The position numbers were made by a program, and so were the translations under genes. The notes beneath the pieces were generated by a model. That model did not search any database. It worked only from the letters and a program-made list of their open reading frames with translations, and was not told where the DNA came from. Of a DNA stretch of 64,000 bases, positions 1 to 60,289 are shown one piece after another. The DNA is from a virus, in IMG/VR virus record IMGVR_UViG_3300007511_000004, positions 82,557 to 146,556 of that record; one strand, written 5' to 3'. The first letter of the stretch is position 1. Every line of letters starts with the position of its first letter.

Positions 1-184
1 ATACTATTGCAACCCTTTTAAGTGACTGGGGCCTAATTGAAATTTCAACGGGTAATCCTCAGCTCTTAGCCCCATTACGTCAGATCAAGATCCTTTCATT
101 TAAAGAAAAAGATCAATGGGATCTGTGCCCGAAATATAACATAGGCTCGACCCGGTCAGTTAATGCATAGGAAACTTACCAAAA

Positions 185-20709: not shown

Positions 20710-21261
20710 ATGCTTAATAGAATTATATTGGCGATACCGGCGATCTTTATTGCAATGAGTTTATCGGCTGAGCCTATTGTGACTGAATCAACCACCACTA
20801 GTACGGTGACGTCTAATACGAATTCCAATACTACGGTTAATGCCCCGCCGCCCTCTGCAATTTCCCCTTCGATTAATACTTCTAATTCGGACTTATGCAC
20901 AGTCGGGGTGGCTGGTGCGGTACAGACACAAATCCTTGGTATTTCGATGGGAACTACCTTCACCGAGGATAACTGTATACGGCTAAAGAATGCCAAGACA
21001 TTATTTGATATGGGTATGAAGGTAGCCGCTGTTGCAGTAATGTGTGAAAACCCACAAGTATTCGATGCTATGATGAACGCAGGAACTCCGTGTCCATATG
21101 ATGGATTGATTGGCGATGCGGCGAAAGCTGCTTGGAAGGCAGATGCTGCTGCACAGCCAGAGGAAACATTTTTTGAAAAAGGTTTGAATATTGATGACAA
21201 ATCTACGCTTATGGGCGCTGGTGGTGTCGGCAGTCTGTTACTCCTCTTATTGTTCCTCTGA
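20710..21261 (+). CDS. exported Cys-containing protein with C-terminal membrane anchor
   Basis: signal peptide, Thr-rich linker, PPSAISP..DLC..G, four Cys, hydrophobic tail. Confidence 0.7.
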   Translation: MLNRIILAIPAIFIAMSLSAEPIVTESTTTSTVTSNTNSNTTVNAPPPSAISPSINTSNSDLCTVGVAGAVQTQILGISMGTTFTEDNCIRLKNAKTLFDMGMKVAAVAVMCENPQVFDAMMNAGTPCPYDGLIGDAAKAAWKADAAAQPEETFFEKGLNIDDKSTLMGAGGVGSLLLLLLFL

Positions 21262-22078
21262 AACAGTAACTGGTTCAACGAATAATGCCGCCAATGGTAC
21301 CATGATTTGGCAGATGCCGAATATCCTACCTGATGCTACTGGATTAACCGTCGAGGGAGTTTATTTTCGTTATACTACTGTAAAAGATCCCGATTCCGAT
21401 CTAATAGTGGTGATTAAGAATGAGCACGCTGAGGAAACCGGATATATCTATTATCATGAGGATGATTGGTCAGGTGTTCCCGGTAACACTATAGTAGGAT
21501 ATGATTCGCTTACTCCAACTTTAGGCACGAACTGGGGTGAAGGCAGTATTACTACAGAAGGCGAGGGCAACGTAACCGATCCTACGGTCAGATACACATA
21601 CAGGTACGACACGTGTAATAACCCATTGGACGATCCAACCTGCCCAGGATTTGAAGATGCGCTTTATAATTACATTTTAGAGAACGTCCTTGCAAAGAAA
21701 GAATTGAGCGTTGATGATCCATACTATGACGAGTGGGTCCAAATGCAACTGGAATCTAAAGCAGAAGTTACAGAAGAATCCGAAACTGAACCTGAAGAAG
21801 ATGAAAAGGAAGAAGATTTGGAACAGAAGTTCGAACCCACTACGAATATTGCGGAGCTTGGTGGGGTCGCAGGAACACAAGCTGAAATAATAGCACAGAT
21901 AGCCTATGTCCCACAATTTGGTGTATATTACACTGCCGCTATTAATGGAGGGGTATATAATGATGTGATAACCCTTCAAGATACAGAATTACCTGACAAT
22001 GGGAGAGCGTTGAGAAGCTTGGCATCTGATGCCGTTCATCGAAATATGGTTCGTTCTCAATACGAAAACGATAACTAG
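21191..22078 (+). CDS. exported acidic protein
   Basis: signal-like N-terminus, C.NPL.DP.CPG motif, Glu-rich linker. Confidence 0.65.
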   Translation: MMTNLRLWALVVSAVCYSSYCSSETVTGSTNNAANGTMIWQMPNILPDATGLTVEGVYFRYTTVKDPDSDLIVVIKNEHAEETGYIYYHEDDWSGVPGNTIVGYDSLTPTLGTNWGEGSITTEGEGNVTDPTVRYTYRYDTCNNPLDDPTCPGFEDALYNYILENVLAKKELSVDDPYYDEWVQMQLESKAEVTEESETEPEEDEKEEDLEQKFEPTTNIAELGGVAGTQAEIIAQIAYVPQFGVYYTAAINGGVYNDVITLQDTELPDNGRALRSLASDAVHRNMVRSQYENDN

Positions 22079-22088
22079 GAGAACTAAT

Positions 22089-22592
22089 ATGTTCCGGAAA
22101 TTATTAACCATTGCCACATTCCTGCCATTGTCTACCACTGCAGTATTTGCAGAGGATAGCCCGATTTATGGATCGGTTGAATCTAAGTGTACTATCTTCA
22201 CGGATGTACCTGGTGTATACGGCCAGCCAACGCCCGGCGAATTAAGTACTGCACCGACAGCGGGTGGGGTTCAACCTAAAATCCGTTATGATGTAGTCCA
22301 GGCAGGATACTATGTTGCTAAAATCTCGTGGCCGGTGAGCTTTCTATCGTCCCCAAGTCTAACCGATACGGTTGTTTGGGACGGTGAAGTAGAGGCCACT
22401 GAAGTTACAGATCCAGCAATGTCAGCCTATGAAACGGATAAGATAGAATATAATAACACAACAGAATTCGATTTATCTGTTGCAGGTACGGTTTGGTTCG
22501 AAGTAACCTCTACCGCCAATTATGGATACGATAAAGCATTTCCGGCCGGTTCTTACCAAGCCGCGGTGACTGCGGAGTGCATTGCTCAATAA
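22089..22592 (+). CDS. exported protein, pilin/fimbrial-subunit-like
   Basis: signal peptide, I.GSV.S.C near the N-terminus, C-terminal FPAGSY.A.VTAEC. Confidence 0.5.
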   Translation: MFRKLLTIATFLPLSTTAVFAEDSPIYGSVESKCTIFTDVPGVYGQPTPGELSTAPTAGGVQPKIRYDVVQAGYYVAKISWPVSFLSSPSLTDTVVWDGEVEATEVTDPAMSAYETDKIEYNNTTEFDLSVAGTVWFEVTSTANYGYDKAFPAGSYQAAVTAECIAQ

Positions 22593-22601
22593 GGATTATT
22601 A

Positions 22602-22985
22602 ATGTTACGATATGTACTTGCTATGGCGCTGGGGCTGGCTGCTCCGGTCGCCAAAGCGCATGAATTGACCCCAACTTATTTCGAATTAAGTCCCGCTTTA
22701 GTAGATAATGTACTAACTACTCGGATGAATGTATTCAACCGACGCGAGGACATTGTGGACTACCGATTCGAGGTGTATACAGCAGATTGGGAGCCGGTGG
22801 CCTTTGCCTCGTTTGATAGAGTGTTTACTTTAGACTACCAAACTGGTACGCAAATCCCTCTTTATTTTAGATCTAGGGATCGGTCTAAAGTAGTTTATAT
22901 TTGTACTCGATCAGTTCCAGAGGCCGATGAATCTGATGGGGCAGTGAATTCATTGATCTGCTCCAAGATAAGGAGTGACGAATGA
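22602..22985 (+). CDS. exported protein, pilus-chaperone-like Ig fold
   Basis: signal peptide ending AKA, LTPTY.EL, V.N, YICT.S...ICSK. Confidence 0.45.
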   Translation: MLRYVLAMALGLAAPVAKAHELTPTYFELSPALVDNVLTTRMNVFNRREDIVDYRFEVYTADWEPVAFASFDRVFTLDYQTGTQIPLYFRSRDRSKVVYICTRSVPEADESDGAVNSLICSKIRSDE

Positions 22986-23407
22986 GAATACTTTCCATAA
23001 TCATTTTTTCAATGTTTGCAACTGTAGCGTATGGACAATCCCTGCCCGACGCCTCAGGTGCTCTTACATTGGGTATGCCGTCAGCTCCGGGTAACTATCA
23101 ATCGGACAAATTCAAGGCAAATAATCTCGATTGCTCGAATGCGATCGGGTCTGCCACTAATCTCGAATTCGGTGTAATGGGGTTAATTAACCAGGGCGAT
23201 TACTATGATGCTCTTAATAACTATATCAATACCCCCTTCCGTGACGTAGGGGTTTATGCTCGGATTGTGATACCATTAGGACAAAAACCTAGGGCAAGAA
23301 TTGACTGTAATAGACTATTTGAACTTGAACTTCAGGCTCGAGAGCTCGAAGTCATTAAACTCCAAAGAGAACTGGATGCTCTAAAATCGTTAGAATTCGG
23401 AGAATAA
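22982..23407 (+). CDS. exported protein with C-terminal coiled coil
   Basis: signal peptide, DCSNAIG, GVYARI.IP, C..L.ELEL. Confidence 0.6.
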   Translation: MRILSIIIFSMFATVAYGQSLPDASGALTLGMPSAPGNYQSDKFKANNLDCSNAIGSATNLEFGVMGLINQGDYYDALNNYINTPFRDVGVYARIVIPLGQKPRARIDCNRLFELELQARELEVIKLQRELDALKSLEFGE

Positions 23408-23410
23408 AAT

Positions 23411-24160
23411 ATGGCAGAATTAGAATTTGGTGGGATGACCTTTCGAGGCGGAAAGATATTTGCGATACTGACTGCTTTAAGTACTTTGGGCGGTGGTGCA
23501 TGGGCTGGGTTTGAGTTTTATGCTGATTATATGGATATGAAAGAGATAGTCCAGAATATCGACATTGACGAAATCGCTGCGGCTAATGAGCTACAGGTTC
23601 AGAAGCTGGATGATGCTATCCAATATACCCAAGATATCAAAAACGATCTCAGGGCTGATATCATTAGAATAGAGGGGCTGGTATCCGGTTTAGAGGACCG
23701 AATTAATGAGTCCGAGTCCACTATACGAGCCTTTCGAAACGAGATTTATGATAAGCTAGATGCCTTTGAAGCTAGATTCAGATCCGTTTTAAAGGATAAT
23801 CAGGATGCTATGGCGGCATCAGAAGAGCGGCTTAGGATCGAATTGAAGAGTAATCAGGATACCATGGCTGCTATGCGAGATACGATTGCAACTCGCTTAG
23901 AAGAATCTGAATCAAGGATTAAGGCCACACAGGGTAGTATAGAAACAACCCTTGAAGGCGTCCGGAACGAAATGAATCAAGTGCAGAAGGATGTCACTGC
24001 ATCTATCCGAGAAGTTGAAGGCACTATACGAGTTTCTGAAAAGGATGTTCGTAATACAATGCGAGAGACCGAGTCCCGGATTGATAATGAGATGGGAACC
24101 CTCGAAAGGGATCTAAAAGAAATTATCCAAGAATCGTTGGATAACCCATTGGCAAATTGA
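23411..24160 (+). CDS. membrane-anchored coiled-coil protein
   Basis: N-terminal TM, long heptad repeats, C-terminal LDNPLA. Confidence 0.7.
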   Translation: MAELEFGGMTFRGGKIFAILTALSTLGGGAWAGFEFYADYMDMKEIVQNIDIDEIAAANELQVQKLDDAIQYTQDIKNDLRADIIRIEGLVSGLEDRINESESTIRAFRNEIYDKLDAFEARFRSVLKDNQDAMAASEERLRIELKSNQDTMAAMRDTIATRLEESESRIKATQGSIETTLEGVRNEMNQVQKDVTASIREVEGTIRVSEKDVRNTMRETESRIDNEMGTLERDLKEIIQESLDNPLAN

Positions 24161-24167
24161 TCATGAT

Positions 24168-24554
24168 ATGATATACGAAATAGACGAAACTATATCAGAA
24201 CATCAGGCCCGAGACATAGATGATACTATGTCTCGGGTTATTAGTATGCTCGATCTAAAAGAATCAGTGTTCGTAACGTTTGTCAGATCCGAAAATACCT
24301 CGGGCGGATGTATAGAACTCGAGGGTGATGAATATCTTGTAGAAATCCCGGTCACAGATGATACCGAGCTATTTGTGTTACACGAGATGAAACACGTCGA
24401 ACAATATAATACTGGCCGATTAAAACAAGGTGAAATATGGTTGGGAAAATCATATAGGGGAGTACCGTATTATTCTAAACCTTGGGAAAAAGAAGCATAT
24501 AAATTCGAAAAAAATGTAAAAAGGGATTTACTATTGATCCCGGATTTGGTATAA
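24168..24554 (+). CDS. zinc metallopeptidase-like protein
   Basis: HEMKH..Q and PWE.EA. Confidence 0.7.
   Translation: MIYEIDETISEHQARDIDDTMSRVISMLDLKESVFVTFVRSENTSGGCIELEGDEYLVEIPVTDDTELFVLHEMKHVEQYNTGRLKQGEIWLGKSYRGVPYYSKPWEKEAYKFEKNVKRDLLLIPDLV
24469..24520 (+). repeat. 52-bp direct repeat, left copy
   Basis: identical to 29831-29882. Confidence 0.95.
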
Positions 24555-24569
24555 TAAACTATGATTAAA
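24523..24569 (+). promoter_or_regulatory. sigma70-like promoter, 47-bp exact duplicate of the rnh promoter
   Basis: gggatttactattgatcccggatttggtataataaactatgattaaa also at 43097-43143. Confidence 0.85.
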
Positions 24570-24654
24570 CGATATATACATTGTAGTTCGGGTGATGCCG
24601 TAACACATCCGCGGGGAGCCACGGTTAGTCCCCATTTTTTTATAAGAGGGACTA

Positions 24655-25590
24655 ATGAACTATTTTGAGATTGAACCAGAACAAAATACCTTCTCTAATA
24701 TAGTAGTAGATCTCACCCATCGCTGCAATATGGAATGTGCTAACTGCTATATTCCTAACCGTGATATCCCTGACCTAGATAAAGATAAGCTGTTCCAATT
24801 CTTATCCAAACTCCCCAGTAGAACATACATTCGTTTAATTGGTGCAGAACCAACTATGCGAGGAGATCTCCCCGAAATTATTGCAATGGTCAAAAAGCTT
24901 GGACATAGACCCAGCTTAACCACTAATGGTCTAAAGCTTGCAAATCTTTCCTACGTTAAAACATTAAAAGAATCCGGACTTCGCTTGCTACTCCATAGTA
25001 TGAATGGTGCGGACGATGATATGGTCTATAAAGCACTAGATAATGGCAAATGGGCAACTGTAAAGGTCCGAGCTCTAAACAATATATTTGCCGAAAGACT
25101 TCCAATCAATACCGGTACTATTATTGCTCGTGGCGTAAATGAATACGTTATGAATAGACAGGTAGAAGTATTTGCTGAAAGAGCAATCGCAAATGGAATC
25201 AATTTTAATACAACACCTCCATACAATAAAATAACTCCGGTTCTCAGAATGAAATCGGTTGGTATGATCGGAAGATATATGGAAGGTGTATCTTATACAA
25301 TTGATGAGTTATCAGATATGGCAGTTTATAGATTAGGTATAGATAAATCTGATATCATAAAAACATCAGCAGGTGTAGTAAAAGCCGGACCTCAATCCGG
25401 TGAAGCTTTGACCTCTTATATGTTCCCATATCAAACCAAAGCGGGTAAAGTCTTAATTAGACTTATCGATTGGCAGACGGATGACGAAGGAGTCATTGAT
25501 CATGACAATCCCAATCGTGGTAGATTAACCCAGAACTTTAAAATCGCACCATTTTTTGAGCATGTGAAAAAGAATGAAAACGGCTATTAG
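24655..25590 (+). CDS. radical SAM protein (MoaA-like fold)
   Basis: CNMECANC CxxxCxxC, GAEPT, TTNG. Confidence 0.9.
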   Translation: MNYFEIEPEQNTFSNIVVDLTHRCNMECANCYIPNRDIPDLDKDKLFQFLSKLPSRTYIRLIGAEPTMRGDLPEIIAMVKKLGHRPSLTTNGLKLANLSYVKTLKESGLRLLLHSMNGADDDMVYKALDNGKWATVKVRALNNIFAERLPINTGTIIARGVNEYVMNRQVEVFAERAIANGINFNTTPPYNKITPVLRMKSVGMIGRYMEGVSYTIDELSDMAVYRLGIDKSDIIKTSAGVVKAGPQSGEALTSYMFPYQTKAGKVLIRLIDWQTDDEGVIDHDNPNRGRLTQNFKIAPFFEHVKKNENGY

Positions 25591-26068
25591 ATATACCCCA
25601 CAGTTTGACCAATTCGTCGGTACAATTAAAGAAATGGTAAGTGGTTTACCTGACGATAAACTAAAAGGCAATTACTCACTTGAAAATCTGATAGTCGACG
25701 AATGGATAGCCGTATCGGTTTTCGAAGGGGGATTTTCTTCTGTAGCTTGGCGGCCTTGGTGGGGTAATAATTGCAGAATCTTAAATAGGTTTTATAAAAA
25801 GCCTGGATATAGGTTCGAAAATGATAAGCGTAAGGTATCACAAGAAACCCTAGATATGATTGAACAGCAATTAAGAGCTGCTTTTCATTTAGGATATGAT
25901 TGTGCTTTTATGAGTCGAGAAACCAAAACTCAATCATTCAATCACTATAAGAAACATCTACAACAACCTTGGTATTCTTCAGATGAAAAGTATAGGATGA
26001 CTGAAAATTCTTATCAAAACATTATGTGGACACCGCTAAATAGCAATGAATTAATCATGGAGAAATAA
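25574..26068 (+). CDS. hypothetical protein, possibly GNAT-like
   Basis: RILNRFY...R and G...AFMSRE pattern; weak. Confidence 0.45.
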   Translation: MKTAIRYTPQFDQFVGTIKEMVSGLPDDKLKGNYSLENLIVDEWIAVSVFEGGFSSVAWRPWWGNNCRILNRFYKKPGYRFENDKRKVSQETLDMIEQQLRAAFHLGYDCAFMSRETKTQSFNHYKKHLQQPWYSSDEKYRMTENSYQNIMWTPLNSNELIMEK

Positions 26069-26971
26069 ATGCATTATGTGATAGAAGATTTCGACTATAG
26101 TTCGGGTGCTGAAGAAGTACGCGATCTTATCGGTGAATATCGAACTGTAGTTATTCGAAATAAATCTGCTAGAACCCCGGAACAATTAATTGAATTTTAT
26201 AAAAAGATCGGTAATGTAGTAGCCCAGAATAATAAGGTTACTGGTACTATTGCAACTGGTGAACTTGTCAAAGTTAGACAGGATGGACTATTTTCCGGTA
26301 AAGACGATGGTGAATTAGAATGGCACAGCGCCGGCATGAACAGAATTGGCCATGATGATATTGTAGCAATGTATATGCACCAGGTTGCAGAATCCGGCGG
26401 CGTAACGTATTTTACTGATCATCAACAAGCTTTTGCGGATTTAGATGAAGATACCCAAAAGGTTCTTAGACAATTAAAGTCTAAAATCGTTACGTACAAT
26501 GCTAAAATGAAACTTCAAAAAATGCATTATAAAAATGTATTTAATGATGAACAGACTATGATGGAATTCAAAGATATTGACGGAAAGACCTCATTTGAAA
26601 AGCAAACCCCTAGGAAAGATTTAGTAACAAGACACCCAATTAATGGTAAAGAAGGTTTATATTTTCCATGGAGTGTCATACGAGGTTTCTCCGGATTATC
26701 CCATGATGAATCGCAAATATCTTTCCGCCCCGATCAGCACGATATTTACTATATGTTGAAACATCATACACTACAAGACAAATACGTGTACGCGCACGAG
26801 TGGCATCCGTACGATATTATTTTAAGTGATCAACATCACAGTTTACATAAGAGGGACGCATATGTTGGAGACCGTGAGCTATGGAGAGCTGGAATCTGGA
26901 TACGATCTGAAGACAAGCTCACTGAACAATGGACTTGTGAAAGTCTCGTGCCCGAAGCCTCTGACTCTTGA
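26069..26971 (+). CDS. TauD/TfdA-family dioxygenase-like protein
   Basis: LEWH, GG.T.F.D...AF..L, LVTRHP..G..GLY, Y.HEW...DI...D....LH.R. Confidence 0.8.
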   Translation: MHYVIEDFDYSSGAEEVRDLIGEYRTVVIRNKSARTPEQLIEFYKKIGNVVAQNNKVTGTIATGELVKVRQDGLFSGKDDGELEWHSAGMNRIGHDDIVAMYMHQVAESGGVTYFTDHQQAFADLDEDTQKVLRQLKSKIVTYNAKMKLQKMHYKNVFNDEQTMMEFKDIDGKTSFEKQTPRKDLVTRHPINGKEGLYFPWSVIRGFSGLSHDESQISFRPDQHDIYYMLKHHTLQDKYVYAHEWHPYDIILSDQHHSLHKRDAYVGDRELWRAGIWIRSEDKLTEQWTCESLVPEASDS

Positions 26972-27560
26972 AGAATTCGAAGCTGTAGCACATTCGCTAG
27001 GCAAACCTCTGGTTACTTCTAAACACGTTTTAAACGAATCTCGGACAGTCCAGGAGCTTAGCAACAATGGTCTATTCGGTGATGGAGAAGTAGATTGGCA
27101 CCACGACTGGTCATACGGTCGTGGCAACTATTTCGGCACAATTTTATATAACGTAAAAAATGCTCATCTATCGCCAACCTGGTTTTGTGATATGAGCAAA
27201 GCACCAGAATCTTTAAAGGATCTATATCGAGAAGCAGTTGGTGAATACTATCCGCCACAGCATCTTCATGATACGTGTTTTACCAGTAAACAGTTACGGC
27301 TACTAGAAAAACAAAAAGTTACTAGACCTTATCTGATTAACCACCACGTAACAGGTGAAGAAATTTTATATTGCAGTTGGAGCACCTTACGTAATCCTAC
27401 CGTTGATATTACCCCAATTAAAGAATGGGTAGAAGCAAATGCTTATAAGCACGAATGGGAAGAAAATGATATCCTAGTTTGGGATAACCTAAAAATGAAT
27501 CATAAAAGAGTTGCATTTGAAGGAAAAAGATTGTTATGGAGAACCCAGTTTATAATATAG
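26862..27560 (+). CDS. TauD/TfdA-family dioxygenase
   Basis: WHHD, T.F.DM, H..TG...LY, Y.HEW...D.LVWDN....H.R; start uncertain. Confidence 0.82.
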   Translation: MLETVSYGELESGYDLKTSSLNNGLVKVSCPKPLTLEEFEAVAHSLGKPLVTSKHVLNESRTVQELSNNGLFGDGEVDWHHDWSYGRGNYFGTILYNVKNAHLSPTWFCDMSKAPESLKDLYREAVGEYYPPQHLHDTCFTSKQLRLLEKQKVTRPYLINHHVTGEEILYCSWSTLRNPTVDITPIKEWVEANAYKHEWEENDILVWDNLKMNHKRVAFEGKRLLWRTQFII

Positions 27561-27982
27561 CAGTTATTAGTTTCCCTAGAACTGCTTCTAAGTCTTTAGC
27601 GGAATGGTATGGTAAAAAGTACAATAAACCGGTGGCACTAGGAAGCTTACATCAGCCGGAATATCTTGGGAAGAATTTTTGGAATACAAAAGACCTCGTC
27701 TTTTCTAAAACCCACATATTGCATGGACACTGGCACAGTTTAGATAAATTGGATGAAGAGACATTAGAATGTCTTCGATCAGATTATAAAATAGTAACCA
27801 GTTATAGAGAAGCCAACTTGGTATACGACTCTTTATTACGGATAACTCAAAAGCCAGATTTGTTTAGTAGTACGATGATTAAATCGTTAGAGGAAAAAGA
27901 AAAATGGGATATATGGAAACATCACGTATTGAATGGAGACCACGTTGAAACTGTTCAAGGTACACCCAAAGGTTTCTGTTGA
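27536..27982 (+). CDS. sulfotransferase-like protein
   Basis: N-terminal ISFPRTASKSL (PAPS 5'-PSB-like) and IV..YR motif. Confidence 0.5.
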   Translation: MENPVYNIAVISFPRTASKSLAEWYGKKYNKPVALGSLHQPEYLGKNFWNTKDLVFSKTHILHGHWHSLDKLDEETLECLRSDYKIVTSYREANLVYDSLLRITQKPDLFSSTMIKSLEEKEKWDIWKHHVLNGDHVETVQGTPKGFC

Positions 27983-28586
27983 TGACTATGTGATTCCTTT
28001 AAGTTACCCTGAATGGGATCAGGAAAAACTTATTCAAGGATTTAAAAGAGATTATTCTGAACGAAATAGATTAACGTTCTATCCGTATTGGGCAGCTAAT
28101 GAAGAACTGAAGCAAGTTGTTCCACCTAATGTTGTAGAGCATATGCGGCCTAATCCCTTAATCGTTCATTATCATAGAGAACGACCGACTAAAATGTTCG
28201 TTCCTATTCATATAGATGGGAAAGATAGCGATCCTGAAGCTAATTTTAACGCTGCTATTAATATCCCGGTTATCGGATGCGATCATAAGTGCTTAACAAA
28301 TTTTTGGTATGCTCCAGACGGATATCAATATGAAGAAAAGGCTCAAGCTAGAATATACCAATCAGGATTTCTAGAAAATGCAGTCGAATATTGTATGACA
28401 GATCAACCAATTCTATTCAACACAAAAGAGCTGCACTCAACTGCTAATTATAATACGTGGGAAAGAGAACGTTGTATTATATCTTGGAGATTTAATCGGT
28501 ATGTCTCTTGGAACGATGCGAAAGATATGCTTCGTGAATTTCTTCAACCGGTTCCACAAATGACAGACTTAGCACAACTCGATTAG
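27933..28586 (+). CDS. Fe(II)/2OG oxygenase-like (DSBH) protein
   Basis: IHID, AINIP, LHS, R.IISWRF. Confidence 0.65.
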   Translation: METTLKLFKVHPKVSVDDYVIPLSYPEWDQEKLIQGFKRDYSERNRLTFYPYWAANEELKQVVPPNVVEHMRPNPLIVHYHRERPTKMFVPIHIDGKDSDPEANFNAAINIPVIGCDHKCLTNFWYAPDGYQYEEKAQARIYQSGFLENAVEYCMTDQPILFNTKELHSTANYNTWERERCIISWRFNRYVSWNDAKDMLREFLQPVPQMTDLAQLD

Positions 28587-28995
28587 TATCACATAAGATA
28601 TGATCTACCCGATGGGGGATATCAACTCTCCAACATTTAGGCGAGTTCAAGTCTAAAGATTCTACTGGTACTTCATCTTCCATATATTGGAATTTAGAAT
28701 CGGGATGTACTTGGATTGGGATATTGATTGCTGAAATGCGCTGCTTAATACCATTTTTTTCTGCAACATCATCGATATGGGTTTTACAAGCCGTATTAGC
28801 CGGTACCATAATAATTGCAGCATAACTGGGCTTGACACCTATCTGATCAGTTAAATAAGAGATTCTTTCCATCTCTTCGTCATTTAACTTGTATGGTCTT
28901 ATGGTCCAATTTGGTTCGGTTATATTGTTGCCGATATTAAAAGCCCATTCAATATCTTCGAGTCTAAGATTCACATCTACATCAAACCATTTCAT
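28492..28995 (-). CDS. Fe(II)/2OG oxygenase-like (DSBH) protein
   Basis: HID, AINIP, PHRV, RVVLSL. Confidence 0.65.
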   Translation of the reverse strand: MKWFDVDVNLRLEDIEWAFNIGNNITEPNWTIRPYKLNDEEMERISYLTDQIGVKPSYAAIIMVPANTACKTHIDDVAEKNGIKQRISAINIPIQVHPDSKFQYMEDEVPVESLDLNSPKCWRVDIPHRVDHILCDTNRVVLSLSFVEPVEEIHEAYLSHRSKRHTD

Positions 28996-29386
28996 CTGTT
29001 ATCCCCACAATATGATATCTCAAAAAATCGGATCTGTTACCGTTCAAAGCTGTATGTTTTTTTCTCGTATCAACATAATAGGCATTACCAGCCGGCAGCT
29101 GATAAACTTCATCTTCTAATACGAATAAACAACTTGAGTTGGTTATAAGAGGAAAATGTATTCTTGGCGTAGTATCATGATGCCATGAATAACATTCTTT
29201 AGGCTTTAGACGCATAATCCTTGCCATACTTATATTATACTTTTTCAATAAAGAATTGGTATATGGCAAATCATATAAACAGAATGTGCCCTTTTGAATT
29301 AATACGTGTCCATCCTGGCCCATTAAATGTGAAACTTCACTTAGTATAAGGTCAGTGTCGATTGAATCAAGCGTCTGAAAATCCAT
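28982..29386 (-). CDS. aspartyl/asparaginyl beta-hydroxylase-like oxygenase
   Basis: RIM.L.P..CYSWHHD..RIH.PL.TN, HTALN, RYHIV. Confidence 0.75.
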   Translation of the reverse strand: MDFQTLDSIDTDLILSEVSHLMGQDGHVLIQKGTFCLYDLPYTNSLLKKYNISMARIMRLKPKECYSWHHDTTPRIHFPLITNSSCLFVLEDEVYQLPAGNAYYVDTRKKHTALNGNRSDFLRYHIVGITDEMV

Positions 29387-29675
29387 AAGTCACCGAGCTA
29401 ACATGATCTAGACTTTCTATCAGAGATTTAATTTCAGATTCCGATGAGATATCAAGCAATTTTTGAAAGCGAGAGTCTGACCATAATCTAGAAACGTATA
29501 AAGTTAATCCGTCTTCAGAAAGAGTAGCGGTTTCTTCTGTAATATCTCCAATAAGAATCCCCGCCACAGTTATCTCTCGAAGTTCACCGAAAGTGTGACC
29601 AATCGAATACATTGCTGAAAGCGGATCCTCTTGCTTGTGCACGAAAATGATTTCATATTGTTGTAATTTAGGCAT
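29367..29675 (-). CDS. hypothetical protein
   Basis: GAGG RBS on the minus strand; first gene of the 3-gene minus operon. Confidence 0.55.
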   Translation of the reverse strand: MPKLQQYEIIFVHKQEDPLSAMYSIGHTFGELREITVAGILIGDITEETATLSEDGLTLYVSRLWSDSRFQKLLDISSESEIKSLIESLDHVSSVTYGFSDA

Positions 29676-29830
29676 TTTTTACCTCTGGTGTTACAGTAAG
29701 TTCTTTTACTATATATGTTATTATATATGGTTGTTTTAATACCACTCTATTCACTCTATAACTAAAAATGGAATAGGAATTTTAGGCCGTTCTGCATAAA
29801 CCTTTTTACCAACAATACCATTCGCTGCCA

Positions 29831-29882
29831 ATTATTCTAAACCTTGGGAAAAAGAAGCATATAAATTCGAAAAAAATGTAAA
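29831..29882 (+). repeat. 52-bp direct repeat, right copy
   Basis: identical to 24469-24520. Confidence 0.95.
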
Positions 29883-29884
29883 TA

Positions 29885-29939
29885 GGGGGTTTACAAATGA
29901 GTCGAAAAGGTTTATATTAGTAGGGTAACCGAGGAGATA
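29885..29939 (+). promoter_or_regulatory. repeated early promoter-RBS cassette
   Basis: gggggTTTACAaatgagtcgaaaaggttTATATTagtagggtaaccgAGGAG. Confidence 0.85.
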
Positions 29940-29943
29940 TACG

Positions 29944-30330
29944 ATGTTCGATATTATCAGTGATCTACATAAAGACGCTCGCGGGTTTCGGCCTACCAAT
30001 GATTGGATGGAAATGTTCGATAAGGTTTCCTCCTCCGAGCAAGAGAAGATCTTCGATGATCTTATCGAAGAGTTAAAAGAAGCCGAAGAAGATGCCCGCA
30101 GAGCCGAGCAACAAGCGATTTACGATTTCGATGATCATCTTGCTGCAGTTCGTCGCGAAGGCGCGCCAGACCGCGCTACTGCTCTTCGTTGGATGACTCA
30201 GCTCTATACGTTCTGTCATGAACAAGACGTAGAACACTTTGTTTGGGAATGGGGGTTCTTATTCACCGATGAAGGCCGTGCTCTAGTGAAAGAGCTTATG
30301 GATATCGTAGAAATGGAGGATATACAATGA
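29944..30330 (+). CDS. hypothetical early protein
   Basis: SDLHKDA.GFRP N-terminus; follows promoter cassette. Confidence 0.7.
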   Translation: MFDIISDLHKDARGFRPTNDWMEMFDKVSSSEQEKIFDDLIEELKEAEEDARRAEQQAIYDFDDHLAAVRREGAPDRATALRWMTQLYTFCHEQDVEHFVWEWGFLFTDEGRALVKELMDIVEMEDIQ

Positions 30331-32191: not shown

Positions 32192-32258
32192 AGGGGGTTT
32201 ACAAATGAGTCGAAAAGGCTTATATTAGTAGTGTAACCAAGGAGATACTGATATGATC
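32192..32258 (+). promoter_or_regulatory. repeated early promoter-RBS-start cassette
   Basis: 67 bp identical to 59325-59391; preceded by inverted copy gtaaaccccc (32155-32164). Confidence 0.9.
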
Positions 32259-46134: not shown

Positions 46135-46344
46135 TGACAAAATTCACTAGGTTCGATGTACGCAATAAGAAAAAGGGTAGACAGAAGAAAAAATCCCTAG
46201 AACGAGATAAGCGAATGGCTCCCGTTCCAGCGGCGAAGACCCGAGAGGAGAAACATTATAACCCGGCGTCCCAAATGAATACTGAAAGGGTGTTGCAAGA
46301 TGAAATGTAAGGACTATTTAAAAAATTCGAAAAAAATATAAAAA

Positions 46345-46392
46345 GGGGGTTTACAAATGAGTCGAAAAGGCTTATATTAGTAGTGTAACCAA
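46345..46392 (+). promoter_or_regulatory. repeated early promoter cassette
   Basis: gggggtttacaaatgagtcgaaaaggcttatattagtagtgtaaccaa. Confidence 0.88.
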
Positions 46393-59324: not shown

Positions 59325-59391
59325 AGGGGGTTTACAAATGAGTCGAAAAGGCTTATATTAGTAGTGTAACCAAGGAGATACTGATATGATC
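59325..59391 (+). promoter_or_regulatory. repeated early promoter-RBS-start cassette
   Basis: 67 bp identical to 32192-32258. Confidence 0.9.
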
Positions 59392-60234: not shown

Positions 60235-60289
60235 GGGGGTTTACAAATGAGTCGAAAAGGCTTATATTAGTAGTGTAACCAAGGAGATA
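60235..60289 (+). promoter_or_regulatory. repeated early promoter-RBS cassette
   Basis: same core as 32192 and 59325. Confidence 0.9.

What the first reader, a model, noticed from the sequence alone, without database searches (positions are those of the whole stretch)
24469..29882. 5.3-kb tailoring-enzyme cassette between perfect 52-bp direct repeats
Seen: identical 52-mers at 24469-24520 (3' end of the peptidase gene) and 29831-29882. They bracket a radical SAM enzyme, a possible GNAT, two TauD-like dioxygenases, a sulfotransferase-like protein and three more Fe(II)/2OG-like oxygenases, arranged as two convergent operons. The region looks more AT-rich than its flanks, and no integrase is present. 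Inference: a recently acquired, excisable module resembling a miniature biosynthetic or modification cluster. The substrate is unknown (protein, glycan, nucleotide or small molecule).
Basis: partly seen in the sequence, partly recalled or inferred. Interest (0 to 1): 0.78.

Follow-up and report, generated by a model that had tools for sequence, protein, structure and literature searches.

The report
Repeat-flanked enzyme cassette, present or absent
A 5.3-kb block of nine oxidative "tailoring" enzyme genes in an uncultured marine T4-like phage lies between two identical 52-base repeats, and wild relatives that are otherwise 99.5-99.9% identical lack the block exactly at one repeat copy, so it is a dispensable module gained or lost by ordinary phage recombination; what the enzymes act on is still unknown.

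Summary
The exact 52-mers lie at 24469-24520 and 29831-29882, and both are present in an independent strain assembly.

The main new result is the empty site. Four metagenome contigs from four samples in two projects carry left flank, one 52-mer, then right flank. They are 99.2-99.98% identical to the window. Presence or absence of the cassette is unlinked to SNPs as close as about 160 nt.

The repeat is the last 33 nt of upstream gene A plus the AT-rich upstream part of a multi-copy sigma70-like early-promoter cassette. This matches PeSL-mediated modular shuffling described for T4-type phages. There is no integrase and no inverted ends, and the right junction cuts a decayed reductase-like (SDR) gene.

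"Recently acquired" is not shown. The nine genes stay linked, in the same variable region, in relatives at 50-90% protein identity. The low GC travels with the module.

I add an ABM-fold protein.

In Alphaproteobacteria the radical SAM-TauD pair sits in RTX/HlyC/type-I-secretion loci. This hints at acyl-chain or protein-acylation tailoring.

The scan had noted this same stretch from an overlapping window (e1-5861479). It has not been noted on other DNA.

The parts
24168..24554 (+). Gene A (128 aa; HExxH motif; low GC). Its last ~17 homologous codons lie inside the left repeat, and the reading frame then runs on through the promoter to a stop.
   Evidence: phrog_16532 and phrog_10499, unknown function; homologues align to residues 1-115..126.
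24469..24520 (+). Left copy of the exact 52-bp direct repeat. It consists of 33 nt of the 3' coding end of gene A plus 19 nt of the promoter's AT-rich upstream element.
24523..24569 (+). P2 early-promoter core (TTTACT, 17-nt spacer, TATAAT). It is a 47-nt exact copy of w43097-43143.
24586..24642 (+). Leader upstream of c1. It holds a GC-rich hairpin (24613-24633) with a conserved loop, followed by a run of T. It looks like a terminator or attenuator and travels with the cassette in relatives.
   Evidence: 7 pairs, 4 of them with compensatory changes.
24655..25590 (+). c1, a radical SAM enzyme (CxxxCxxC at residues 24-31). It has no other cysteine, so it has no SPASM or twitch domain.
   Evidence: (best solved relative GDGT-MAS/Tes 7tol at 1.4e-16, then MoaA).
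25574..26068 (+). c2, a GNAT-fold protein (probable acyltransferase). The CoA-binding motif is not recognisable.
   Evidence: pLDDT 90.8; VIA Z up to 10.2, all 50 top entries from the GNAT acyltransferase superfamily.
26069..26971 (+). c3, a TauD/TfdA-family protein with invariant His-Ser-Ala in place of His-x-Asp (halogenase-like iron site).
   Evidence: H86, A88 and G89 invariant in 12 orthologues; aligned to WHSDS of TfdA, 5bke.
26937..27560 (+). c4, a TauD-family dioxygenase with the canonical His-x-Asp. The 207-aa start follows the public gene calls.
   Evidence: It pairs with c1 in distant phages and in bacteria.
27536..27982 (+). c5, a small protein with a sulfotransferase or P-loop-kinase fold. 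It has an invariant PRTxS loop and Arg-x7-Ser.
   Evidence: TM 0.66-0.72 to shikimate kinases and to viral sulfotransferase clusters.
27933..28586 (+). c6, a cupin-like protein with the His-x-Asp...His...Arg motif.
   Evidence: 2 of 9 family members hit Asp_Arg_Hydrox weakly.
28492..28995 (-). c7, a cupin-like protein with the His-x-Asp...His...Arg motif. The evidence is at motif level only.
28982..29386 (-). c8, a cupin of the aspartyl/asparaginyl beta-hydroxylase family (the LpxO/OlsC kind).
29367..29675 (-). c9, a 102-aa protein with a ferredoxin-like, ABM-type (ActVA-Orf6/SnoaB) fold.
   Evidence: pLDDT 91.2; E from 4e-4, TM about 0.5.
29676..29830 (-). Decayed 3' remnant of a short-chain dehydrogenase-like gene, with a stop and a frameshift. 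The gene is intact upstream of c9 in L098 and L089. The right junction of the cassette cuts it.
29831..29882 (+). Right copy of the exact 52-bp direct repeat.
29885..29918 (+). P1 early-promoter core (GGGGG-TTTACA, 17-nt spacer, TATATT). It belongs to a family of at least 7 near-identical copies that also share the ribosome-binding site.
29944..30330 (+). Gene B, the first gene after the cassette. In the empty allele it directly follows gene A.

Best explanation
The 5,310-bp block (w24521-29830) is a dispensable accessory module in a hyperplastic (variable) region of a marine T4-like phage. Its borders are set by the phage's own repeated early-promoter cassettes.

Shown:
- The 52-bp repeat is real.
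- Otherwise near-identical wild genomes carry either [A-52mer-P2-cassette-52mer-P1-B] or [A-52mer-P1-B].
- The two states are unlinked to SNPs about 160 nt and 1.65 kb away.
- The right junction lies inside a decayed gene.
- The left junction is a chimera of two resident promoter types.
- The nine genes are a conserved linkage group in related phages.

Inferred:
- The states interconvert by general homologous recombination of the UvsX type between the two 52-bp copies. That would give a precise deletion and a 5.4-kb circle. The reverse would be re-insertion of such a circle, or a copy-choice exchange with a co-infecting relative. This is the process described for PeSL cassettes of T4-type phages.
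- The first joining event was illegitimate at the right end and promoter-homology-guided at the left end.
- Deletion is probably the commoner direction today. This is my judgement.

Function is inferred only. The left arm (c1-c6) would be transcribed early from P2 through a terminator-like leader hairpin. The enzymes are one radical SAM, one GNAT-fold acyltransferase, two TauD proteins (one with a halogenase-like iron site), a sulfotransferase-like protein, three cupin-type oxygenases and an ABM-fold protein. I think they most likely tailor an aliphatic or acyl substrate, such as an N-acyl amino acid, a lipid, or the acyl group of an acylated protein. The steps would be C-H functionalisation: hydroxylation, possibly halogenation, and sulfation.

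My odds on the substrate:
- about 35% an acyl or lipid target
- about 25% a protein or peptide side chain
- about 20% a free small metabolite
- the rest unknown
For: Repeat and independent assemblies.

Empty site: L188/L235, L190, L236 and L237 hold exactly one 52-mer between flanks that are 99.2-99.98% identical to the window.

Four-gamete pattern: filled and empty alleles both occur with either base at w24311 and at w22814. L188 and L190 carry private SNPs on both sides, at w24051 and w31058.

Promoter family: about 14 copies of the form GGG(G/A)(G/A)TTTAC(A/T)-N-TATA(A/T)T, with AT-rich upstream parts and shared ribosome-binding sites. Most long dispersed exact repeats of the genome (67, 55, 55, 52, 49, 49, 48, 47 and 42 nt) are these cassettes.

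PeSL model and the statement that T4 needs only small (<50 bp) patches of homology: PMC2839356 and PMC4122927.

No integrase or transposase family and no terminal inverted repeats. The right end is a reductase-like (SDR) gene remnant.

Conserved linkage in L089, L090, L091, L093 and L098, in the same region. Relatives lacking the cassette: L012, L013, L018, L036, L037 and L038.

Dispensability: the empty alleles, and a filled strain with a 19-nt deletion that removes the invariant C-terminal residues of c1.

Function leads:
- Protein folds and families.
- c1 homologues at 50-55% identity sit beside TauD in 5 of 7 Geminicoccaceae, Rhodospirillales, other alphaproteobacterial and gammaproteobacterial MAG loci. 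In the six alphaproteobacterial loci they are accompanied by HlyC or GNAT acyltransferases, RTX-repeat proteins and a C39-ABC/HlyD exporter.
- In Bdellovibrionales, c1 homologues sit beside a fatty-acid-desaturase-family protein and Asp/Arg-hydroxylase-family proteins.
- In Acidobacteriota, they sit beside a haem-oxygenase-like iron enzyme.
Against: No circle junction or read-level data could be examined, so recombination is inferred from end states only.

I do not know which assemblers or k-mer sizes made the empty-site contigs. With k below 52 a false path through the repeat is conceivable. Private SNPs on both sides, four samples and two projects argue against that.

The direction of the event (gain or loss) is not resolved.

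Relatives that carry the cassette have no long flanking repeats, so the repeat is specific to this lineage and is not a general feature of the module.

The stem-loop component that defines PeSLs is clear in only some copies.

For function:
- c2 shows no sequence similarity to HlyC.
- The phage encodes no RTX-repeat protein.
- No cultured phage has c1 or c3.
- c6 and c7 are assigned by motif only.
- The right arm (c9-c7) may have lost its native promoter with the truncation.
Confidence: 0.72

Rival explanations
1. Recent gain. The empty allele is ancestral. The cassette entered once, from a co-infecting relative, by template switching: out of the recipient at the promoter and back in 52 nt upstream. 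This duplicated the 52 nt. Today's empty genomes never had the cassette.
For: The right-hand repeat contains a fragment of resident gene A, so A-P1-B must predate the filled arrangement. Both repeat copies are still identical. The cassette is the lowest-GC stretch of the genome. The right junction is illegitimate and lies inside a gene.
Against: Empty and filled alleles share flanking haplotypes as close as about 160 nt. That needs either many recombinations or recurrent deletion. The module sits in the same region in diverged relatives. No near-identical donor was found: the closest cassette has c1 at 91% protein identity. This rival concerns direction only. It is compatible with the main explanation, since once formed the repeat also allows loss.
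Confidence: 0.4
2. Assembly artefact. The repeat, or the empty site, is produced by the assembler.
For: Several contigs start or stop at the repeat. L182 starts 3 nt before it, and L184 ends inside it.
Against: Both copies occur inside long contigs from independent samples that have their own SNPs (L185). At 52 nt the repeat is shorter than a read. Empty contigs come from four samples in two projects. They have private SNPs on both sides in L188 and L190 and on the right side in L237.
Confidence: 0.03
3. A self-mobile element (transposon, integrative element or homing cassette) with a 52-bp target duplication.
For: Direct repeats flank a discrete block that is present or absent.
Against: No cassette protein matches an integrase, transposase or homing-endonuclease family. 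There are no inverted terminal repeats. One end is a truncated, decayed gene. The other end is a resident promoter duplicated from w43097. The repeat is far longer than usual target duplications (my knowledge). Other carriers lack such repeats.
Confidence: 0.03
4. The enzymes mature a ribosomal peptide or modify a phage or host protein (RiPP-like or virion modification) rather than a lipid or metabolite.
For: Radical SAM plus oxygenases is a common RiPP theme. The bacterial c1-TauD pairs lie next to secreted RTX proteins and a C39-peptidase ABC exporter. c8 belongs to a family that includes protein Asp/Asn hydroxylases.
Against: c1 has no SPASM or auxiliary-cluster cysteines. No precursor-like small gene was seen. 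c9 has an enzyme-like ABM fold and is not a peptide. The phage has no RTX-repeat protein. Partner families in other bacteria act on acyl chains (desaturase, LpxO/OlsC-type; my knowledge of those families).
Confidence: 0.25

Closest known systems
PeSL (promoter-early stem-loop) mediated modular shuffling in T4-type phages (phi1/RB49; PST/T4; nt-1/KVP40). Arbiol et al. 2010, PMC2839356; Comeau et al. 2014, PMC4122927.
   Same: Both have repeated, strong sigma70-like early promoters. These have AT-rich upstream parts that contain the stop of the upstream gene, and a ribosome-binding site and start at the 3' end. They are concentrated in variable regions in front of orphan genes. In both, indels between near-identical genomes are bounded by two such cassettes and leave one chimeric copy. 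Neither has a dedicated recombinase. Crossover in the AT-rich part was proposed for RB49 ORF192, as here.
   Different: Here the identical stretch reaches 33 nt into the coding end of the upstream gene, which is not part of the promoter family. The two flanking promoters are of different subtypes (P2 and P1). The unit is large: 5.3 kb, nine genes and two convergent arms, against one to four orphan genes. One border is an illegitimate junction in a gene remnant. Stem-loops are evident in only some copies. The evidence comes from natural populations, not from inverse PCR.
Spontaneous loss of the 'ORFanage' region in cyanophage S-PM2 (Puxty et al. 2015, PMC4503421).
   Same: A marine T4-like phage loses a block of accessory genes of unknown function. 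The block is dispensable.
   Different: The authors thought PeSLs an unlikely cause of acquisition there, and they found that synteny of those ORFs is rarely conserved. Here the linkage is conserved and the repeat is explicit.
Fe(II)/2-oxoglutarate halogenases (SyrB2, WelO5, BesD type). From my own knowledge, not tested against them here.
   Same: c3 keeps both His ligands and the 2OG-binding Arg but has Ala where the carboxylate ligand sits. This is invariant in all 12 orthologues.
   Different: c3 belongs to the TauD/TfdA sequence family. I know of no characterised halogenase in that family. No activity, halide site or substrate is known.
RTX toxin loci hlyCABD (acyltransferase HlyC, RTX protein, ABC exporter, HlyD).
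   Same: Bacterial homologues of c1 and c4 are embedded among HlyC-family or GNAT acyltransferases, RTX-repeat proteins, C39-ABC exporters and HlyD. The phage places a GNAT-fold protein between its c1 and its TauD genes.
   Different: Classical hly operons have no radical SAM or TauD gene (my knowledge). c2 is not detectably related to HlyC. The phage has no RTX protein or exporter.

Membership tests
PeSL-type promoter cassette and PeSL-mediated indel | Sigma70-like -35 and -10 boxes with an AT-rich region upstream that holds the stop of the upstream gene, and a ribosome-binding site and start codon at the 3' end | tested here: met
   TTTACA, 17-nt spacer, TATATT, and TTTACT, 17-nt spacer, TATAAT (10 of 12 matches). 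The upstream element is A-rich, and shared GGAG and ATG follow. Promoter activity was not tested.
PeSL-type promoter cassette and PeSL-mediated indel | A stem-loop within or next to the promoter (terminator or attenuator) | tested here: inconclusive
   2 of 9 copies fold significantly better than shuffles. One of them (w32150) has a 10-bp GTAAACCCCC/GGGGGTTTAC stem. [quoted passage not shown]: a covarying GC hairpin plus a T run lies downstream of P2.
PeSL-type promoter cassette and PeSL-mediated indel | Many copies, concentrated in variable regions in front of genes of unknown function | tested here: met
   about 14 copies, 10 of them in the window's early or variable part. They make up most long dispersed exact repeats of the genome.
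PeSL-type promoter cassette and PeSL-mediated indel | Indel between near-identical genomes bounded by two cassettes, leaving one copy | tested here: met
   four empty-site contigs with exactly one 52-mer.
PeSL-type promoter cassette and PeSL-mediated indel | Excised mini-circles detectable | not testable with these tools
   This needs reads or inverse PCR. The pattern scans of the collections found only the left junction.
Integrase- or transposase-borne mobile element | Encodes a recombinase and has defined (inverted or att) ends | tested here: not met
Radical SAM superfamily (c1) | CxxxCxxC cluster motif and a Pfam PF04055 score above the cut-off | tested here: met
   (53.2 bits against a cut-off of 29.5). 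(C24, C28 and C31 invariant).
SPASM/twitch peptide-maturase radical SAM (c1) | C-terminal auxiliary Fe-S cysteines | tested here: not met
   no cysteine outside the CxxxCxxC motif; all SPASM models score far below their cut-offs.
TauD/TfdA Fe(II)/2OG dioxygenases (c3, c4) | A Pfam PF02668 score above the cut-off, and the His-x-Asp...His triad | tested here: met
   (99.8 and 64.4 bits against a cut-off of 27). c4 has WHHD. c3 fails the Asp position (see the next row).
Fe(II)/2OG halogenase (c3) | Carboxylate ligand replaced by Ala or Gly, with both His ligands and the 2OG-binding Arg kept | tested here: met
   This is a signature only.
Fe(II)/2OG halogenase (c3) | Halide-dependent halogenation of a substrate | not testable with these tools
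   An enzyme assay is needed.
GNAT acyltransferases (c2) | GNAT fold | tested here: met
   (Z 8.2-10.2 over about 117-148 residues, and all 50 top entries are GNAT-superfamily acyltransferases).
GNAT acyltransferases (c2) | Acyl-CoA pyrophosphate-binding motif (Q/R-x-x-G-x-G/A) | tested here: inconclusive
   only a degenerate K-K-P-G-Y-R at the expected place. No Pfam GNAT model matches any of the 18 members.
Sulfotransferases (c5) | 5'-phosphosulfate-binding loop and the Arg-x7-Ser 3'-phosphate motif on a P-loop-like fold | tested here: inconclusive
   PRTxS, R91 and S99 are invariant; structural neighbours are shikimate kinases and viral sulfotransferase clusters (TM about 0.7). There is no Pfam or PDB sequence hit.
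Cupin/2OG oxygenases (c6, c7) | Double-stranded beta-helix with His-x-Asp...His | tested here: inconclusive
   The motifs are invariant. Profile comparisons to c8 are weak (E 0.12 and 0.6), and c6 against c7 gives E 0.0022. Two of nine c6 relatives hit PF05118 weakly. No structure was predicted.

The most novel reading that the evidence does not exclude
The radical SAM, acyltransferase-fold and TauD core is an undescribed acyl-chain tailoring system. It is shared between marine phages and the RTX/type-I-secretion loci of Alphaproteobacteria. In the phage it is extended by a halogenase-like TauD, a sulfotransferase-like protein and cupin oxygenases. The phage version would make or remodel a hydroxylated, possibly halogenated and sulfated, acyl product (lipid, N-acyl amino acid or protein-bound acyl group) early in infection. 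It would be carried as a recombination-mobilised module that is optional at population level.
Probability: 0.15. Interest if true: 0.8.

Novelty: new variant of a known kind. Interest (0 to 1): 0.58.

Why it matters
PeSL-type shuffling was shown in cultured coliphages and vibriophages, mostly for single orphan genes. Here the two end states of such an exchange are caught in wild marine populations, for a nine-gene enzyme module. The allele is unlinked to neighbouring SNPs. This gives a natural with/without pair for asking what the module does, by comparing filled and empty phages on the same host.

The module itself is common in marine viromes: 1,145 c1 homologues at E <= 1e-10. It is absent from all 50,697 deposited phage records searched. 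It contains a conserved halogenase-like Fe/2OG enzyme. Its core pair recurs in bacterial RTX/HlyC loci, where no radical SAM or TauD step is known to me. So it may point to unknown chemistry in both settings.

Tried and rejected
- Megablast and blastn of the region against 50,697 phage records gave no match.
- tblastn of c1 and c3 against the same records gave only one weak hit each.
- An exact 32-mer scan of the viral and metagenome collections found only the sister contig's left junction. The empty site was found instead by exact look-up of protein B and of the empty-allele protein A.
- Homologues of gene A elsewhere share no context.
- A search for repeats of 24 nt or more flanking the cassette in eleven relatives found none.
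- Rfam on the cassette found nothing.
- Profile searches of c2, c5 and c9 against PDB sequences found nothing meaningful.
- hhalign of c2 against HlyC found no relation.
- No RTX repeats were found in the phage genome.
- No paralogues of cassette genes occur elsewhere in the genome, including the other radical SAM operon.
- The Atlas search for c9 gave nothing.
- My first reading, that the empty alleles form one lineage, was withdrawn after two further empty contigs on other haplotypes.
- I rejected c9 as a precursor peptide after its fold prediction.

Full report
SETTING. The window is bases 82557-146556 of a 146,556-bp IMG/VR virus record with a 119-bp terminal overlap. It encodes a T4-type DNA polymerase, a gp41-type helicase and a ribonucleotide reductase. 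The polymerase is at most 49% identical to any deposited phage. The nearest named relatives are marine cyanomyoviruses at about 45%. It is therefore an uncultured marine T4-like phage.

THE OBSERVATION. The 52-mer at 24469-24520 recurs exactly at 29831-29882 and extends on neither side. About 5e-22 such pairs are expected by chance.

The repeat has two parts:
- The first 33 nt are the last homologous codons of gene A (24168-24554). Homologues of A align only to about residue 115-126.
- The last 19 nt are the A-rich upstream element of a promoter family.

After the left copy comes promoter core P2 (TTTACT, 17-nt spacer, TATAAT). Forty-seven nt of P2 are identical to w43097-43143. After the right copy comes promoter core P1 (GGGGG-TTTACA, 17-nt spacer, TATATT). 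P1 has at least seven near-identical copies that also share the ribosome-binding site. Apart from the terminal overlap and some tandem coding repeats, the longest dispersed exact repeats of the genome (67, 55, 55, 52, 49, 49, 48, 47 and 42 nt) are all such promoter cassettes.

NOT AN ARTEFACT. Exact-protein look-ups recovered independent assemblies:
- L185 (ENA ERZ23499038, a 29.6-kb contig) differs from the window by 14 SNPs and a 19-nt deletion. It still carries both 52-mers exactly.
- Other contigs cover the left junction (L180, L183, L239, L240, L241) or the right junction (L187, L189).
- The Logan contig L184 runs from w24540 to w29860. Those are the points where 31-mers stop being unique at the 47-nt and 52-nt repeats (my inference).

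THE EMPTY SITE. A look-up of protein B returned two contigs in which gene A is followed directly by gene B. They are L188 (ENA ERZ23498677, 16 kb) and L190 (JGI 3300007512). Both hold left flank, exactly one 52-mer, then P1 and B. Their flanks are 99.5-99.95% identical to the window.

In this allele, gene A reads through P1 to give 132 residues. Looking that protein up found two more empty contigs from further samples, L236 and L237.

L188 and L190 share SNPs at w24051 and w31058, on either side of the site, that no filled contig has. This argues against chimeric assembly.

L236 and L237 lack those SNPs. They carry w22814 T>C and w24311 T>C instead, and these also occur in filled contigs (L185; L180 and L241). 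All four combinations of cassette state and SNP therefore exist, at distances of about 160 nt and 1.65 kb. Either recombination is frequent around the site, or the indel is recurrent.

WHAT KIND OF BORDER. Pfam, PHROGs and NCBIfam assign no cassette protein to an integrase, transposase or homing-endonuclease family. The block has no inverted ends.

The 155 nt between c9 and the right repeat are a decayed 3' remnant of a gene. The remnant carries a stop, a frameshift and a 12-nt insertion. In L098 and L089 the gene is intact: a 147-residue short-chain dehydrogenase-like gene upstream of c9, with TGxxxGxG-like and YxxxK motifs. So the right junction is an illegitimate cut inside a longer ancestral module.

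The left junction reads as a hybrid of a P1-type upstream element and the P2 core. It is joined where the two promoter types share GGG..TTTAC.

Relatives that carry the cassette show no exact flanking repeat of 24 nt or more. Their sequence upstream of c1 aligns with the window only from the leader hairpin onward, not through P2.

COMPARISON WITH PeSLs. Arbiol et al. (PMC2839356) describe cassettes in the variable regions of T4-type phages, made of these parts:
- a strong sigma70-like promoter
- an AT-rich upstream part that contains the upstream gene's stop
- a stem-loop
- the ribosome-binding site and start of the next gene

They show that recombination between two such cassettes deletes the genes between them, leaves a chimeric copy and releases a mini-circle. 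They note that T4 recombination needs only small (<50 bp) patches of homology. Comeau et al. (PMC4122927) extend this to other T4-like pairs.

The present case meets the promoter, distribution and indel criteria. The stem-loop criterion is met only in part. One copy has a 10-bp GTAAACCCCC/GGGGGTTTAC stem. Four copies have a weak 7-pair hairpin between the boxes. P2 is followed by a GC hairpin plus a T run, and that hairpin shows four compensatory pairs across relatives. Mini-circles could not be tested.

IS IT RECENT? The cassette is the lowest-GC 5.3-kb stretch of the genome: 0.373 against a mean of 0.416, at the 0.3 percentile. Its GC3 is about 0.30, against 0.35-0.46 in flanking genes u1, B, d2, d5, d7 and d8. 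Gene A is as AT-rich as the cassette (GC3 0.33).

However, c1-c9 occur as a block, in the same order and orientation, in L089, L090, L091, L093 and L098 at 29-91% protein identity. They lie between the same conserved six-gene operon (u6-u1) and d5. Core genes in those contigs are just as diverged: d5 at 62-73% and d8 at 69%. In most of these carriers the cassette is again AT-richer than its flanks. Many other relatives have no cassette between u1 and d5.

The module is therefore old and patchy in this phage clade. What is recent is the formation, or homogenisation, of the 52-bp repeat and the present polymorphism. The fragment of gene A at the right end shows that an A-P1-B arrangement preceded the filled one. 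Whether today's empty genomes are ancestral or revertant is open.

A filled strain seen in two projects has a 19-nt deletion. It removes the invariant C-terminal residues of c1 (R288, G289, R290, T292, P299, K305, E308). This fits with the module being dispensable.

THE GENES.
- c1 is a radical SAM enzyme with one CxxxCxxC motif and no other cysteine. Its core resembles GDGT-MAS/Tes (7tol, 1.4e-16) and MoaA. It reaches no NCBIfam cut-off.
- c2 has no sequence match. It folds confidently (pLDDT 90.8) into a GNAT fold. Foldseek gives probability 1.0. VIA gives Z up to 10.2, and the list includes N-acyl amino acid and acyl-homoserine-lactone synthases at Z about 8.5.
- c3 and c4 are TauD/TfdA-family proteins. 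c3 has His-Ser-Ala where TfdA has His-Ser-Asp. The Ala is invariant in 12 orthologues down to 51% identity, and the distal His and the Arg are kept. c4 has the usual His-His-Asp.
- c5 has an invariant PRTxS loop and Arg-x7-Ser. Its Atlas model resembles shikimate kinases and viral sulfotransferase clusters (TM about 0.7).
- c8 is a cupin of the Asp/Asn beta-hydroxylase family.
- c6 and c7 share the His-x-Asp...His...Arg pattern with c8. Statistical support for the relationship is weak.
- c9 folds (pLDDT 91.2) as a ferredoxin-like ABM-type domain. The nearest structures are ActVA-Orf6 and SnoaB, with E from 4e-4.

None of these genes has a paralogue elsewhere in the genome. c1 has 1,145 homologues at E <= 1e-10 in public metagenomes. 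It has none among deposited phage genomes beyond one weak hit.

CONTEXT IN BACTERIA. Full-length c1 homologues at 35-55% identity occur in MAGs.
- In the six alphaproteobacterial loci (Geminicoccaceae, Rhodospirillales and another alphaproteobacterium), four have c1 directly followed by a c4-like TauD. All six carry at least one of the following: an HlyC-family acyltransferase (PF02794, 3e-29) or GNAT protein; RTX-repeat proteins of 777-1010 residues; a C39-peptidase ABC exporter; HlyD.
- In Bdellovibrionales the partners are a fatty-acid-desaturase-family protein and Asp/Arg-hydroxylase-family proteins.
- In Acidobacteriota the partner is a haem-oxygenase-like iron enzyme.

From my knowledge of these families, HlyC uses acyl-ACP, LpxO and OlsC hydroxylate lipid acyl chains, and Tes joins lipid tails. 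The common thread is an acyl chain. I therefore favour acyl or lipid tailoring, with low confidence. Against this, c2 is not detectably related to HlyC, and the phage has no RTX protein.

VERDICT. The block is a real unit that is present or absent at population level, bounded by a 52-bp repeat that belongs to a PeSL-like promoter network. 'Recently acquired' is not shown. The mechanism of mobility is a known kind. The enzyme set and its bacterial RTX connection are the unexplained and more interesting part.

Noticed in passing
window 24586-24642: The leader hairpin upstream of c1 has a conserved loop (CCACGGTTAG) and four compensatory stem pairs across eight phage loci. A run of T follows it. 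It may be an attenuator or a binding site. It has no Rfam match.
   Followed up: partly
window 26069-26971: The TauD-family protein c3 has invariant His-Ser-Ala-Gly at the iron-binding position (TfdA has His-Ser-Asp). This is a halogenase-like signature in a family where I know of no halogenase.
   Followed up: partly
L185:3600-3670 and L240 (equivalent to window 25510-25528): A strain variant found in two sequencing projects has a 19-nt deletion. It replaces the invariant C-terminal 26 residues of the radical SAM enzyme, which suggests decay of the module in some lineages.
   Followed up: partly
L192:5514-13922; L194:7911-10111; L196 and L197: In alphaproteobacterial MAGs the c1-like radical SAM gene, followed in most of these loci by a TauD gene, sits among RTX-repeat proteins, HlyC or GNAT acyltransferases and a C39-ABC/HlyD exporter. 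I found no paper describing this arrangement.
   Followed up: partly
window 32192-32258, 59325-59391, 60235-60289, 46344-46392: Promoter cassettes share 48-67 nt exactly, including the ribosome-binding site and, in the 67-nt pair, the first two codons. They are further potential deletion or exchange points. Strain variation there was not examined.
   Followed up: no
window 28492-28586: The convergent genes c6 and c7 overlap by 95 nt at their 3' ends. A similar overlap is kept in L090.
   Followed up: no
window 24168-24554: Gene A is as AT-rich as the cassette (GC3 0.33). It has an HExxH motif. Among relatives that share the upstream operon it occurs only in this strain cluster, and its distant homologues sit in unrelated contexts. 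It looks like another imported orphan gene.
   Followed up: partly
window 20710-24160: The six-gene operon u6-u1 just upstream is conserved in order in dozens of related contigs, while everything downstream of it varies. It marks the edge of the variable region.
   Followed up: partly
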